From IMG/VR virus record IMGVR_UViG_2541047847_000005: 38,375 bases of DNA; one strand, given 5' to 3'. The stretch comes from a virus. Taxonomy: Duplodnaviria; Heunggongvirae; Uroviricota; Caudoviricetes. The notes beneath the pieces are model-generated. The model ran no database searches. It was not told the origin of the DNA and was given only the letters and a program-made list of their open reading frames with translations. Both the position numbers and the translations under genes were made by a program. Positions 11,327 through 14,133 of the stretch are shown one piece after another (within the stretch, counting starts at the first letter, position 1; every line of letters begins with the position of its first letter).

Positions 11327-11357
11327 CCGGAAAGCATTGTGCTTTCCGGTTTTGTTT
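11327..11357 (+). terminator. rho-independent terminator downstream of repressor gene
   Basis: perfect 10-bp stem CCGGAAAGCA / TGCTTTCCGG with 3-nt loop followed by TTTTGTTT; abuts the stop codon of the convergent methyltransferase gene. Confidence 0.6.
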
Positions 11358-12121
11358 CAGAAGTTGCAGATTACCAGTTCACGGCGCGGCGTGGATTTCC
11401 CCGCCAGACTGTAGTTGATGTTCACTGTCTGTATGTTCAGTCCAGTGAACACCTCGCGCATCTGTGGGATATCGTTCACCGAAATTATCATTTTTCCTCT
11501 GATGCACCGGGCCAGCTCTGCCAGCCGCGAGTAGTTCCCTTCAGGAAAATCCACACCATAGCCTTCCGTACCCAGGTACGGTGGGTCGCAGTAGAACAGT
11601 GTGTGCGGACGATCATAACGCTCAATGCACTGTTGCCAGTCCATGTGTTCTATGACTGTTCTGGAAAGCCGCAGGTGTGCTGCTGACAGTTCTTCTTCAA
11701 TACGCAGCAGGTTGAAGCGTGGCGGGGATGTGGTGGAGGTACCGAAGCTGTGCTCTGCCACCTTGCCGCCAAACGCCTGCTTCTGAAGGTAGTAGAACCG
11801 TGCCGCACGCTGGATATCCGTCAGTGTTTCTTCCGGGGTGATCTGCAGCCATTTGTAGATCTGACGGCTGACCAGCGCCCATTTGAACTGGCGGACAAAT
11901 TCTTCCAGGTGATGCTTTACCACCCGGTACAGATTCACCAGTTCACCGTTGATATCATTGATGACTTCGATCTTGCCGGGTGTCTTAAGAAAATAGAGCG
12001 CTGCTGCCCCACAAAACGGCTCCACATAACATTCATGCGCCGGAAACAGCGGCAGGATGTGTTTTGCCAGGCGACGTTTGCCACCAATCCATGGAACGAT
12101 GGGTAATGTCTTCATTTTCAT
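11357..12121 (-). CDS. orphan Dam-class (D12) N6-adenine DNA methyltransferase
   Basis: 254 aa; motif I FCGAAALYF and motif IV DPPY; no adjacent restriction endonuclease gene. Confidence 0.85.
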   Translation of the reverse strand: MKMKTLPIVPWIGGKRRLAKHILPLFPAHECYVEPFCGAAALYFLKTPGKIEVINDINGELVNLYRVVKHHLEEFVRQFKWALVSRQIYKWLQITPEETLTDIQRAARFYYLQKQAFGGKVAEHSFGTSTTSPPRFNLLRIEEELSAAHLRLSRTVIEHMDWQQCIERYDRPHTLFYCDPPYLGTEGYGVDFPEGNYSRLAELARCIRGKMIISVNDIPQMREVFTGLNIQTVNINYSLAGKSTPRRELVICNF

Positions 12122-12312
12122 AATCTGTAAGCCTTTTACAATTATTAAAAATATGGCAGGCTAGTCTGGTCTCGCGAGACTGACTGAACCTCGGTCGGCT
12201 CACAGCCACTTCTGTGGGACGATGGCCAGCCCGGTGGGTCCGAAGCACCGGGCTGGTCGTTCTTTCATGATGCGGCAGGGATAGTGGGATTTCTGTTAAT
12301 GTGGTTTAGGGA

Positions 12313-12528
12313 TTATCCGGGGCGATTTTCTGACCTTATCCGGTCCAGGGCATAAGTAATACCTTCTGCAAAAACAGAAGTATCAAACTGCTTTTGTATT
12401 CCCTGAAAATGAAAAGCGGCACGACAGACACTCAGTTCTCCGCGATGTAACCGGATAATATCTTCCAGAACATTGTTCACTGCTTCAGCACGGCGCTGAT
12501 GTTCTGTTAACGTTAATCGGGGATTCAT
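12313..12528 (-). CDS. hypothetical small protein (71 aa)
   Basis: ATG at 12528 with AAGGAG 6 nt upstream; about 190 bp upstream of the methyltransferase gene. Confidence 0.5.
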   Translation of the reverse strand: MNPRLTLTEHQRRAEAVNNVLEDIIRLHRGELSVCRAAFHFQGIQKQFDTSVFAEGITYALDRIRSENRPG

Positions 12529-12529
12529 G

Positions 12530-12931
12530 ATGCACTCCTTAAATGATGATTTTTATGCACTCACCGGCAAAATATTCTGCCGATTACTGAACACGCATCC
12601 GGCACCTCAGGTTTTGATTTATTCTGGTTTTTTCGATATCCCGGACCAGGTTGATCACGACCAGAAAAAGTGCCGGTATTTTATTGATACGCTGATATGG
12701 CTTCGGGATAACAGCTATATTCGTTACTCTCAGTTGCTGGCTGTGGGAGCGGCTGATGTCGTCCTCACGGAAAAAACGCTCCGTCTGCTCAATGCCACGC
12801 CGACCCTTCTGCAGCCCCGGCCCGCACCATTTAAAGAGTCACTTCTGGATGCAGTAAAAACCGGTGAAAATGCAGTCATCGCTGAATGCGTATCCCGGAT
12901 TATGCGTTACGTGTTTAATGAACGTAAGTGA
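12530..12931 (+). CDS. hypothetical protein (about 133 aa)
   Basis: ORF 12527..12931; about 400 bp open on plus strand with no competing ORF; ATG at 12530 has GGGGA 6 nt upstream; start overlaps the start of the divergent 71-aa gene. Confidence 0.4.
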   Translation: MHSLNDDFYALTGKIFCRLLNTHPAPQVLIYSGFFDIPDQVDHDQKKCRYFIDTLIWLRDNSYIRYSQLLAVGAADVVLTEKTLRLLNATPTLLQPRPAPFKESLLDAVKTGENAVIAECVSRIMRYVFNERK

Positions 12932-13650
12932 GGTTTATCCGCTGTCTGCATAATCCCGATAGCCAGTGCGAGGGGAAGTAATTCCGGGGAAACTCTTTCA
13001 AACAGCGACTCCCATTCTCCTCTCGCCATCACTCTGTCCAGCCCGCCCCCCAGTTGCATTTCAGCAATCTTCCTGATTTCCCGGAACAACGCCGCTTTGA
13101 TCTCTTCGTGCTCAGCTTTATTTTCCGGTGTCAGAATGTATTCGTCGAAGAACCGGGGAGGCTGGTTAACGGGGAGCGTGTTCACCGGGATGTGTTCCTG
13201 TTTCCCGTACTTCGGGGCAGAAAAACATTCTGTTGGCTGACCGGTGAGTTTACGTAGCTCCTTCATGAGCAGCTCCTGATCGTAAACTGTCATCAGTGCC
13301 GCAATGGTGGCATGCAGTGCATCGGGCAGTATCCAGGGTTGCCGGCCCGTGGGGCATATAACATCCAGCAGCTCATTCGTCCGACAGATACGCTCCTCGC
13401 CGTATGACAACAGGCCCTGTCCCGTGTATTCCTCTAGCCTGATCACTGTGCCACCCCGTGGCTTCTGCCAGGTCGTCAGATCTTCGCCATTCATACGGCG
13501 CTCATTCTCCACGTCAGCAGCATCGACAATGACGCTGTTTCCGAGTTCCTGTTTCACCATCTCTTCTATCCGCGCCAGTACGTAACTTTTACCGCTGCCC
13601 ACAGGACCGGACACAGTGACAGTGATGACCGGATTCAGTGTGTGCGTCAT
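12907..13650 (-). CDS. P-loop NTPase/kinase-like protein of unknown function
   Basis: 247 aa; Walker A GPVGSGKS at residues 15-22; GAGGAG 8 nt upstream of ATG; not a recognisable Mu core gene. Confidence 0.6.
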   Translation of the reverse strand: MTHTLNPVITVTVSGPVGSGKSYVLARIEEMVKQELGNSVIVDAADVENERRMNGEDLTTWQKPRGGTVIRLEEYTGQGLLSYGEERICRTNELLDVICPTGRQPWILPDALHATIAALMTVYDQELLMKELRKLTGQPTECFSAPKYGKQEHIPVNTLPVNQPPRFFDEYILTPENKAEHEEIKAALFREIRKIAEMQLGGGLDRVMARGEWESLFERVSPELLPLALAIGIMQTADKPHLRSLNT

Positions 13651-13780
13651 ATCGTATTCTCCTCTGTGAATAATTCATCGTTTATCCTGCACATCCCGTA
13701 TCCCCGGCTCTCTTAACGCGCTTTAAAATCCTTCGCGCCCTGTATTTGTGATGCTGTCTCCACCAGACAAGGAGACACAC

Positions 13781-14131: not shown

Positions 14132-14133
14132 TC

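What the first reader, a model, noticed from the sequence alone, without database searches (positions are those of the whole stretch)
12313..12931. Face-to-face divergent genes whose start codons overlap
The minus-strand 71-aa gene starts at 12528 and the plus-strand gene at 12527 or 12530, so the two start codons overlap. Each gene's Shine-Dalgarno sequence (AAGGAG for the minus gene at 12535..12540 on the plus strand; GGGGA for the plus gene at 12519..12523) lies inside the first codons of the other. Both promoters must therefore lie inside the partner's coding sequence, which would make expression of the two mutually interfering, as in a switch or toxin-antitoxin-like pair.
Basis: seen in the sequence. 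Interest (0 to 1): 0.5.

Follow-up and report, generated by a model that had tools for sequence, protein, structure and literature searches.

The report
Conserved head-to-head phage gene pair
Two real prophage genes point away from each other from a shared start site, so each gene's ribosome-binding site lies inside the other gene; the layout recurs in most sampled lineages of a widespread phage protein family, which suggests a built-in either/or expression device that nobody has tested.

Summary
The minus ORF (12313..12528, 71 aa) and the plus ORF (12527 or 12530..12931, 134/133 aa) meet at CATGATG, and each Shine-Dalgarno sequence lies in the partner's first codons. A bare ORF pair like this is not rare: 11 CATG sites in the window have ORFs of at least 60 codons both ways. 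Comparison is what makes it real. The window is a BcepMu-like E. coli prophage. The 134-aa protein (phrog_2266, at least 212 clusters at 50% identity, no Pfam family, confident winged-helix model) keeps a 63-90-aa divergent partner at or within 4 nt of its start in 8 of 11 sampled lineages, including P2-like phages at about 30% identity. All 33 distinct junction sequences examined in the window-type and P2-type loci share the CATG overlap. Both ORFs show third-position-biased substitution, and the codons that encode the partner's SD are frozen. Spacing and N-terminal alignment favour 12530 as the start here, which leaves a 1-nt gap rather than an overlap. The geometry forces the two mRNAs to be antisense across both ribosome-binding sites, so mutually exclusive expression is the best model. 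No promoter or transcript start could be placed, and nothing supports a toxin-antitoxin pair. Function is unknown. I file it as a new variant of cis-antisense or face-to-face switches.

The parts
12313..12528 (-). Small partner gene, 71 aa (phrog_4490); predicted three-helix bundle
   Evidence: ORF; PGAP CDS WP_001069609.1; phrog_4490 E=1.6e-52; homolog in a Serratia prophage at 30% identity, E=6e-11; alignable with partners from four other lineages (A8); AF2 pLDDT 87.7, helices 3-28, 34-47, 50-67
12527..12931 (+). Large partner gene, 134 aa from ATG 12527 or, more likely, 133 aa from ATG 12530 (phrog_2266); winged-helix domain plus two C-terminal helices
12526..12532 (.). Junction CATGATG: minus start codon (12526-12528) and the two candidate plus start codons (12527-12529, 12530-12532)
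   Evidence: Sequence; CATG overlap in 33/33 distinct junctions and in L073, L074, L075, L080, L081; 4-nt gap in L066-68
12535..12540 (-). Shine-Dalgarno AAGGAG of the small gene, encoded within codons His-Ser-Leu of the large gene
   Evidence: -8.7 kcal/mol, spacer 5-6. The equivalent CTCC/CCTC motif occurs in the first 18 nt of the large gene in 8 of 9 sequences examined from partner-bearing lineages and in none of the three partner-less lineages. In the P2-type group Leu5 is CTC in 38/38 sequences
12519..12523 (+). Weak Shine-Dalgarno-like GGGGA of the large gene, encoded within codons 2-4 of the small gene
   Evidence: -5.7 kcal/mol. In the P2-type group the equivalent small-gene codon Ser4 is TCC in 35/35 sequences and Asn3 is AAT in 30/30
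12907..13650 (-). Neighbouring 247-aa gene (phrog_3787, Walker-A-like GSGKS at the N-terminus) that overlaps the 3' end of the large gene tail-to-tail by 25 nt; possible source of read-through transcription into the small gene
   Evidence: Mosaic: the N-terminal 74 aa are 54% identical to the 258-aa gene at the same place in L073; residues 182-233 are 48% identical to the 89-aa gene at the same place in Serratia
12148..12268 (+). Context element: conserved structured RNA / plus-strand terminator-like element downstream of a promoter-like site (12115-12142); read-through would be antisense to the small gene and enter the large gene
   Evidence: z=-4.5; 36 pairs, 6 with compensatory changes; no Rfam family

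Best explanation
This is a portable two-gene phage accessory module. A ~135-145-aa winged-helix protein (phrog_2266) and a 63-90-aa helical protein are encoded back-to-back from one shared, roughly 35-nt bidirectional translation-initiation region. Both are real protein-coding genes (shown). Each start codon and SD lies inside the first codons of the partner, so any translatable mRNA of one gene carries a 5' leader that is perfectly complementary to the ribosome-binding site and first codons of the other (this follows from the geometry). The transcription units are therefore face-to-face. I infer that the two genes are expressed in an either/or manner, by two routes. Convergent RNA polymerases interfere with each other. 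When both mRNAs are present they pair over both ribosome-binding sites, which blocks translation and makes an RNase III substrate, so only the mRNA in excess is translated. The winged-helix protein probably binds DNA and biases the switch, and the small protein probably acts on or with it (speculative). The module sits in accessory or defence hotspots: the Dam-holin slot of BcepMu-like prophages and the cos-proximal gpA-gpQ hotspot of P2-like phages. There it may separate a lysogenic from a lytic expression state. My estimates: both genes real and the arrangement selected, about 0.9; mutual negative coupling through antisense overlap, about 0.5; the winged-helix protein as the DNA-binding regulator of the pair, about 0.3.
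For: Arrangement: the sequence matches the finding's coordinates. CATG overlap in 33/33 distinct junctions among 61 loci. The same overlap occurs in distant lineages L073, L074, L075, L080 and L081, and L066-68 has a 4-nt gap, making 8 of 11 sampled lineages of a family with 25-30% pairwise identity.

Coding: pairwise differences by codon position are 10028/6123/36959 for the large gene and 7660/5903/16156 for the small gene. The small partners belong to PHROGs 4490, 2454 and 25421, and the large proteins all to phrog_2266.

Dual coding of the SDs: Leu5 is CTC in 38/38 and Ser4 is TCC in 35/35. The small-gene SD scores -6.6 to -10.6 kcal/mol in most lineages, against a background mean of -2.9. 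The CTCC/CCTC motif is present only in partner-bearing lineages.

Extra constraint near the junction: synonymous diversity is 0.23 in large-gene codons 1-10, 0.13 in codons 41-50 and 0.24 in small-gene codons 1-10, against 0.4-0.5 elsewhere. Nucleotide conservation peaks at -5..+55 and +100..+145. The latter coincides with a recurrent weak minus-strand promoter-like site, TAGTCA-16-TAAATT. Window and L079 differ at 2 of 100 aligned positions at the junction, against 6-12 per 100 in the flanks.

Context: the slot is variable in BcepMu-like phages, and the P2-type copy lies in the gpA-gpQ hotspot (PMC9122126).
Against: No transcript start or promoter was identified. Sigma-70 scans give background-level, positionally inconsistent hits, and no conserved RNA structure lies upstream of the large gene's start. 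No conserved operator or palindrome was found; only short two-copy repeats that may be chance. The conserved side of the junction differs between lineages: the large-gene side in the P2-type group and the small-gene side in the window type. A winged-helix fold is also used for protein-protein contacts, as in cullin, kleisin and RPA32, and the putative recognition helix is not conserved in its polar residues. P2-type small partners are not detectably homologous to the others (hhalign probability 0.1). Three lineages of the large protein lack the partner, so the large protein can work alone. In the window the small gene could simply be read through from the 247-aa gene.
Confidence: 0.5

Rival explanations
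1. Genome economy without cross-talk. Both genes are real but are expressed at different times from distant promoters. For example, the small gene is read through from the upstream minus-strand unit during lytic growth, and the large gene is expressed from its own promoter in the lysogen. The abutting starts are a by-product of compaction in size-limited phage genomes, with no regulatory role for the overlap.
For: No promoters were found near the junction. In the window, Serratia, L066 and P2-type loci the small gene is co-oriented with the flanking operon, so read-through is possible. A natural in-frame 318-bp deletion of the large gene (L059/L060) keeps the small gene and only 54 nt upstream of it. 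P2-like and P4-like hotspots are under packaging-size pressure (PMC9122126).
Against: Compaction does not explain why the offset is held to CATG (or within 4 nt) over 25-30% protein identity and across at least two unrelated small-protein families. Other divergent pairs in the same genomes keep 100-300 bp between them. In L074 and L075 the small gene is the reversed one, with no upstream co-oriented gene to read through from. Even with temporal separation, read-through into the small gene is by definition antisense transcription of the large gene, so cross-talk is hard to avoid.
Confidence: 0.25
2. A protein-level inhibitor/effector pair: toxin-antitoxin-like, an abortive-infection or anti-defence module. 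The winged-helix protein is an effector or sensor, the small helical protein neutralises it, and the head-to-head layout sets their ratio.
For: The module lies in defence or accessory hotspots next to RT, Fic, AbiJ, HipA_2-like and P-loop genes (PMC9122126). Small-partner families track the large-protein clades, which is compatible with co-evolution. Among close E. coli variants, nonsynonymous changes exceed synonymous ones in both genes (for example 25 vs 10 and 10 vs 6), as in arms-race genes.
Against: No toxin, nuclease, kinase or other enzymatic domain. No hit in PADLOC, Pfam or NCBIfam. The genes are divergent, not the co-transcribed operon that defines type II TA systems. The small protein is charged and soluble-looking, not a type I membrane peptide (translation). 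No interaction could be modelled with the tools available.
Confidence: 0.17
3. One of the two ORFs is a chance antisense ORF and only one gene exists.
For: Head-to-head ORF pairs at CATG occur by chance: 11 in this window, one of them at the start of the SLT gene at 14133. The GenBank annotation of phage PhiKM omits the plus gene, and gene callers missed the small ORF in L074 and L075.
Against: Both ORFs stay open and alignable at protein level across lineages whose DNA no longer aligns. Both show third-position-biased substitution. Both fall in independent PHROG families. Both give confident AF2 folds.
Confidence: 0.03

Closest known systems
Face-to-face promoter switches of P2-like phages (P2 Pc/Pe with C and Cox; coliphage 186 pL/pR with CI and Apl)
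   Same: Divergent regulatory genes in temperate phages whose promoters point at each other, so the transcripts overlap and interfere; the result is an either/or developmental choice. (My knowledge of the P2/186 literature; the transcriptional-interference concept is as in PMC5001618 and PMC5423467.)
   Different: There the overlap is about 35-62 nt of 5' leader and the start codons are well separated. Here the start codons themselves overlap or abut and both SDs lie inside the partner's ORF. The proteins are unrelated: winged helix plus three-helix bundle, versus HTH repressor and Cox/Apl. This module coexists with the phage's own immunity switch and sits in an accessory hotspot. Its promoters are unmapped.
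Convergent-transcription bistable switches prgX/prgQ (pCF10) and scbA/scbR (Streptomyces)
   Same: Divergently encoded genes with overlapping 5' transcript regions, in which transcriptional interference plus cis-antisense RNA pairing has been modelled or shown to give bistability (PMC3134472, PMC4519249).
   Different: In those systems the transcript overlaps (53-223 nt) were mapped experimentally, the products are known regulators or signal genes, and the start codons do not overlap. Here nothing has been mapped.
Excludons (Listeria) and other long-5'-UTR antisense arrangements
   Same: A transcript of one gene runs antisense through the divergent neighbour and excludes its expression. If the large gene is transcribed from beyond the small gene (for example from 12115-12142), the whole small gene would lie antisense within its leader.
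   Different: Excludons are defined from transcriptomes and involve long antisense RNAs spanning whole genes or operons. There are no transcript data here, and the defining feature of this pair is the shared initiation region, not a long antisense RNA.
RBS-covering cis-antisense pairs (IS10 RNA-IN/RNA-OUT, hok/sok)
   Same: An antisense RNA complementary to the SD and start codon blocks translation and triggers RNase III cleavage (my knowledge).
   Different: In those systems one partner is a non-coding RNA. Here both strands would be mRNAs, so the titration would be reciprocal.
Type II toxin-antitoxin operons
   Same: A small two-gene cassette on mobile elements, one small protein and one larger, located in defence hotspots.
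   Different: Not an operon, no toxin domain, no match to TA or defence profiles.

Membership tests
phrog_2266 / phrog_4490 (phage protein families of unknown function) | Significant full-length match to the family profile | tested here: met
   134-aa protein: phrog_2266, E=6e-44, residues 2-133 on profile 1-142/144. 71-aa protein: phrog_4490, E=1.6e-52, full length. Relatives L005, P0019 and P0017 also match phrog_2266.
Face-to-face (convergent-promoter) divergent switch | Two divergently oriented genes | tested here: met
Face-to-face (convergent-promoter) divergent switch | Transcript starts placed so that the two transcripts overlap in antisense | tested here: inconclusive
   The overlap follows from the geometry if each mRNA carries its SD. 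No promoter could be placed, however: scans are at background and not positionally conserved. The only hints are indirect, namely the synonymous-site dips. Needs 5' RACE or dRNA-seq.
Face-to-face (convergent-promoter) divergent switch | A product that binds operators at the promoters | tested here: inconclusive
   Winged-helix fold, but no Pfam DNA-binding family and no conserved operator.
Type II toxin-antitoxin system | Co-directional, co-transcribed bicistronic operon | tested here: not met
   The genes are divergent in every lineage.
Type II toxin-antitoxin system | Recognisable toxin domain | tested here: not met
   No Pfam, NCBIfam or PADLOC match for either protein.
Type I toxin-antitoxin (antisense RNA plus small hydrophobic toxin) | Small membrane-active hydrophobic peptide | tested here: not met
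   The 71-aa product is charged and predicted to be a soluble three-helix bundle.
Known anti-phage defence systems (PADLOC-DB v2) | Match to a defence-system protein model | tested here: not met
   0 families for either protein at E<=1.
Named winged-helix regulator families (MarR, IclR, Rrf2, PadR, ArsR, YjcQ/DUF2513) | Sequence-profile match to the family | tested here: not met
   No Pfam hit for the window protein, and 0 of 74 family members hit any of these. The profile search against PDB gives YjcQ at E=0.64 and AspA at 0.47 only. UniRef labels the Serratia homolog DUF2513, but this was not reproduced. Only the fold is similar.
Excludon | Experimentally observed long antisense transcript spanning the divergent neighbour | not testable with these tools
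   No transcriptome data were available for this prophage.

The most novel reading that the evidence does not exclude
The shared bidirectional initiation region is itself the functional device: a self-contained reciprocal-antisense toggle that phages move between genomes as a cassette. The two mRNAs titrate each other over both ribosome-binding sites, so the cell makes either the winged-helix protein or its small partner, never both. That would give a compact RNA-level comparator marking lysogenic versus lytic (or uninfected versus superinfected) state and governing a previously unrecognised immunity or anti-defence function in P2-like and Mu-like prophages.
Probability: 0.2. Interest if true: 0.8.

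Novelty: new variant of a known kind. Interest (0 to 1): 0.6.

Why it matters
Divergent genes whose start codons overlap are usually dismissed as annotation errors. Here the arrangement is held fixed over deep divergence in a family found in about 10% of complete E. coli genomes (556/5426 for this version, 94/5426 for the P2-type version) and in many other enterobacterial prophages. If the reciprocal antisense coupling is real, it is the most compact natural two-gene toggle known to me and a simple model for mRNA-mRNA titration and transcriptional interference. It would also assign a first property to three PHROG families of unknown function that sit in the best-studied phage defence hotspots. 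For annotation, it shows that small ORFs overlapping a neighbour's start head-to-head should not be filtered out automatically.

Tried and rejected
1. Sigma-70 promoter search. The tool scan and my own PWM scan of 18 loci gave no strong or positionally conserved promoter on either strand. The only recurrent sites within the P2-type group are weak.
2. Leaderless-mRNA reading, rejected. No -10-like element sits at the right distance from either ATG (sequences), and the conserved SDs argue for leadered mRNAs.
4. Operators. Only short two-copy repeats were found: ATGCACTC x2 in the window, GCAATGAAT x2 in Serratia, and a 10-nt inverted repeat in one P2-type locus that is not conserved. The palindrome TTAACGTTAA (12507-12516) is absent from Serratia.
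5. Function from sequence. Pfam, NCBIfam and PADLOC were negative, and the profile search against PDB gave only designed proteins and marginal winged-helix hits.
7. Homology between the P2-type small partner and the others. hhalign probability is about 0.1.
8. The idea that the large gene is always the one reversed within an operon, rejected by L074 and L075.
9. Homology to the 186 Tum antirepressor. No tblastn match to 186-like phages.
10. Literature. Nothing turned up for the accessions, for the PHROG ids, or for this pair in the P2-hotspot papers. The Salmonella prophage transcriptome paper does not cover this module.
11. The search for related loci with the deep alignment failed because no stretch was conserved enough.

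Full report
**1. The observation**

Positions 12526-12532 read CATGATG. The minus-strand ORF 12313..12528 (71 aa) starts with the complement of 12526-12528. The plus-strand ORF has in-frame ATGs at 12527 and 12530 and ends at 12931. CTCCTT at 12535-12540 is AAGGAG on the minus strand, 6 nt from the minus start. Its best pairing with the 16S 3' end is -8.7 kcal/mol, against a mean of -2.9 for random 20-mers of the window. GGGGA at 12519-12523 is a weaker SD (-5.7 kcal/mol), 3 nt from ATG 12527 and 6 nt from ATG 12530. Every coordinate in the finding is correct.

Taken alone the pattern is not statistically special. Of the 153 CATG sites in the window, 11 have ORFs of at least 60 codons in both directions. 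One of these is at the start of the SLT gene at 14133. Most are antisense ORFs inside real genes. The case has to rest on comparison.

**2. Where the window comes from**

The region is 100% identical to prophages in many E. coli chromosomes and is found in 556 of 5426 complete genomes. It is 96.6% identical to Escherichia phage PhiKM, classified as Bcepmuvirus. PGAP annotates both ORFs with the 2-nt overlap, as WP_001069609.1 and WP_000972292.1. The PhiKM record omits the plus gene.

The pair lies between a Dam methylase (11357..12121, minus) and the holin/SLT lysis genes (from 13748, plus). A 247-aa minus-strand gene (12907..13650) overlaps the plus gene tail-to-tail by 25 nt. In the related Klebsiella phage KP12 the Dam-holin interval holds a single unrelated gene, so this is a variable accessory slot.

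**3. Both ORFs are genes and the arrangement is conserved**

- The 134-aa protein matches phrog_2266 and the 71-aa protein matches phrog_4490.
- tblastn found relatives of the large protein at about 31% identity in P2-like phages: Klebsiella ST147-VIM1phi7.1, Escherichia Midge and Salmonella FSL SP-004. In all three records a 63-64-aa gene is annotated on the opposite strand with the same 2-nt start overlap.
- Across 61 loci from genomes and viral contigs there are 33 distinct junction sequences. All 33 have a minus ORF of at least 63 codons starting at offset +1, that is CATG.
- An exhaustive profile search found 212 representatives at 50% clustering, nearly all 125-150 aa and matching full length, with no Pfam family.
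- I sampled DNA for eleven lineages of this family. Seven have the divergent small ORF at CATG: the window/Serratia type, the P2 type, L073, L074, L075, L080 and L081. One (L066-68) has it 4 nt away (CATggaaATG). Three (L063, L077/78, L082) lack it.
- In L074 and L075 the small ORF had not been called by the gene finder.
- The small partners fall into phrog_4490, phrog_2454 (P2 type) and phrog_25421.
- Six non-P2 small partners align along their length and share an ...AE.L..AL motif. The P2-type partner is not detectably related (hhalign probability about 0.1).
- In the P2-type group, pairwise differences by codon position are 10028/6123/36959 for the large gene and 7660/5903/16156 for the small gene. 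That is a clear coding signature on both strands.

**4. Which start is used in the window**

In the P2-type relatives the large gene's SD-like AGGGA/GGGAA sits 6 nt from the single ATG. In the window, L079 and Serratia (all CATGATG) that spacing is met by the second ATG. In the protein alignment the homologs' Met aligns with Met2 of the window protein. So 12530 is the more likely start here, and the two start codons then abut with a 1-nt gap rather than overlap. This does not change the essential point, that each SD lies within the other gene's first five codons.

**5. Dual coding and extra constraint at the junction**

- In the P2-type group Leu5 of the large gene is CTC in 38/38 sequences, while other Leu positions use up to five codons. 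CTC supplies the GAG of the partner's GAGG.
- Ser4 of the small gene is TCC in 35/35 and Asn3 is AAT in 30/30. These supply the partner's GGAAT.
- A CTCC/CCTC/CTCT motif occurs in the first 18 nt of the large gene in 8 of 9 sequences examined from partner-bearing lineages. It occurs in none of the three partner-less lineages, whose proteins also lack the extra one or two residues before the conserved N(I/L)E.F(N/D) motif (sequences).
- Synonymous diversity is depressed in large-gene codons 1-10 (0.23) and 41-50 (0.13) and in small-gene codons 1-10 (0.24), against 0.4-0.5 elsewhere.
- The dip at codons 31-50 coincides with the nucleotide-conservation peak at +100..+145. It also coincides with a recurrent weak minus-strand promoter-like site, TAGTCA-16-TAAATT, whose -10 ends 96 nt upstream of the small gene's ATG.
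- Between the window and an 81%-identical relative (L079), the roughly 100 nt around the junction differ at 2 positions, against 6-12 per 100 in the flanks.

These signals point to embedded non-coding function, but they are indirect. They also fall on different sides of the junction in the two lineages.

**6. What the proteins look like**

The small protein is predicted to be a three-helix bundle (pLDDT 87.7) with no significant structural match. Neither protein matches Pfam, NCBIfam or PADLOC models.

**7. Context**

The P2-type copy usually lies about 700 nt from the end of the portal gene, across portal proteins of 63-98% identity. That places it at the cos-proximal edge of the gpA-gpQ hotspot, which Rousset et al. 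showed to hold anti-phage systems (PMC9122126). Neighbours across loci include a reverse transcriptase, Fic, AbiJ, a HipA_2-like protein and P-loop proteins.

The orientation relative to flanking operons is not constant. In the window, Serratia, L066 and the P2 type the large gene is the reversed one. In L074 and L075 it is the small gene. Read-through from a neighbouring operon therefore cannot be the general way either gene is transcribed.

**8. Mechanism**

*Shown:*
- Two real genes.
- A shared bidirectional initiation region about 35 nt long.
- SDs encoded within the partner's codons.
- Conservation of this layout over deep divergence.

*Following from the geometry:* an mRNA that carries the SD of one gene must contain the reverse complement of the other gene's start codon, SD and first codons. 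The two transcription units therefore face each other and the mRNAs are complementary over both ribosome-binding sites.

*Inferred from established knowledge* of convergent promoters and cis-antisense RNAs (186 pR/pL, prgX/prgQ, scbA/scbR, IS10 RNA-IN/OUT; PMC5001618, PMC3134472, PMC4519249):
- Polymerase collision or occlusion.
- Reciprocal mRNA titration with RNase III cleavage.

Together these would make expression either/or.

*Speculative:* the winged-helix protein binds DNA at the locus, and the small protein modulates it.

*Not achieved:* no promoter could be placed, no conserved leader structure exists, and no operator was found.

**9. Rivals**

- *Compaction without cross-talk* (0.25). 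It explains the lack of detectable promoters. It does not explain why the offset is fixed across unrelated small partners.
- *A protein-level inhibitor/effector or TA-like pair* (0.17). The hotspot location fits, as does an excess of nonsynonymous over synonymous changes among close E. coli variants (25 vs 10 and 10 vs 6). But the genes are not an operon and there is no toxin domain.
- *A spurious ORF* (0.03). This is essentially excluded.

**10. Novelty and verdict**

I found no description of this pair under its accessions or PHROG ids, or in the P2-hotspot papers. Mechanistically it belongs with face-to-face and cis-antisense divergent switches, but it is a more extreme and previously unrecognised version:
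- The start codons overlap or abut.
- Both SDs lie inside the partner's ORF.
- Both strands are coding.
- The unit is portable across Mu-like and P2-like phages.

I rate it a new variant of a known kind, interest 0.6. Transcript mapping and dual reporters are cheap and would be decisive.

Noticed in passing
window 12148-12268 (+), with a promoter-like site at 12115-12142: Conserved structured element between the Dam start and the stop of the small gene. It has three hairpins, the last one (12226-12256, CCAGCCCGGTG/CACCGGGCTGG) followed by a T-rich tail like a plus-strand intrinsic terminator. Fold energy is -57.3 kcal/mol, z=-4.5. It is conserved in KP12, Serratia, L079 and L073, with 6 of 36 pairs showing compensatory changes. 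There is no Rfam family and no tRNA. It could be a ~115-120-nt sRNA, or a leader/attenuator whose read-through is antisense to the small gene.
   Followed up: partly
window 12907-12931 and 12907-13650 (-): The 247-aa gene overlaps the 3' end of the large gene tail-to-tail by 25 nt (37 nt in Serratia, 4 nt in L073). The gene is mosaic. Its N-terminal 74 aa (Walker-A-like GSGKS) are 54% identical to a 258-aa protein at the same place in L073. Residues 182-233 are 48% identical to an 89-aa protein at the same place in Serratia.
   Followed up: partly
L059 and L060 (equivalent to window 12581-12898): Natural 318-bp in-frame deletion inside the large gene in two viral contigs. It keeps the small gene, the first 18 codons of the large gene and the part overlapping the 247-aa gene. 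L016 has a truncated large gene.
   Followed up: partly
window 12313-12931 compared with L010, L011, L012, L016, L079: Among close E. coli variants, nonsynonymous codon changes outnumber synonymous ones in both genes (for example large gene 25 vs 10 and small gene 10 vs 6 against L079). The more diverged P2-type group shows clear purifying selection. This may indicate relaxed or diversifying selection in this lineage.
   Followed up: no
window 12122-13747 compared with L069 (Klebsiella phage KP12): The interval between Dam and the holin is a variable accessory slot in BcepMu-like phages. KP12 has one unrelated 188-aa plus-strand gene there. L074 has AbiJ next to the pair, and L073 has a DUF7424 gene in place of Dam.
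   Followed up: partly
window 14133: The start of the SLT transglycosylase gene (ATG 14134) also sits in a CATG with a 70-codon antisense ORF. This serves as a chance control for the pattern, and I did not examine its conservation.
   Followed up: no
window 12507-12516 and 12466-12506: Perfect 10-bp palindrome TTAACGTTAA 11-20 nt upstream of ATG 12527, and an inverted repeat CAGAACAT/ATGTTCTG enclosing a smaller hairpin flagged as terminator-like on the plus strand. Both are identical in L079 and absent from Serratia. The region's fold is not better than shuffles.
   Followed up: partly
L004/L065-type loci, -215..-186 relative to the junction: In P2-type loci a non-coding block just past the small gene's stop (ATAACATATTGATATAGATCC...) is among the most conserved stretches of the region (0.93). 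Its function is unknown and it has no canonical sigma-70 -10 element.
   Followed up: no
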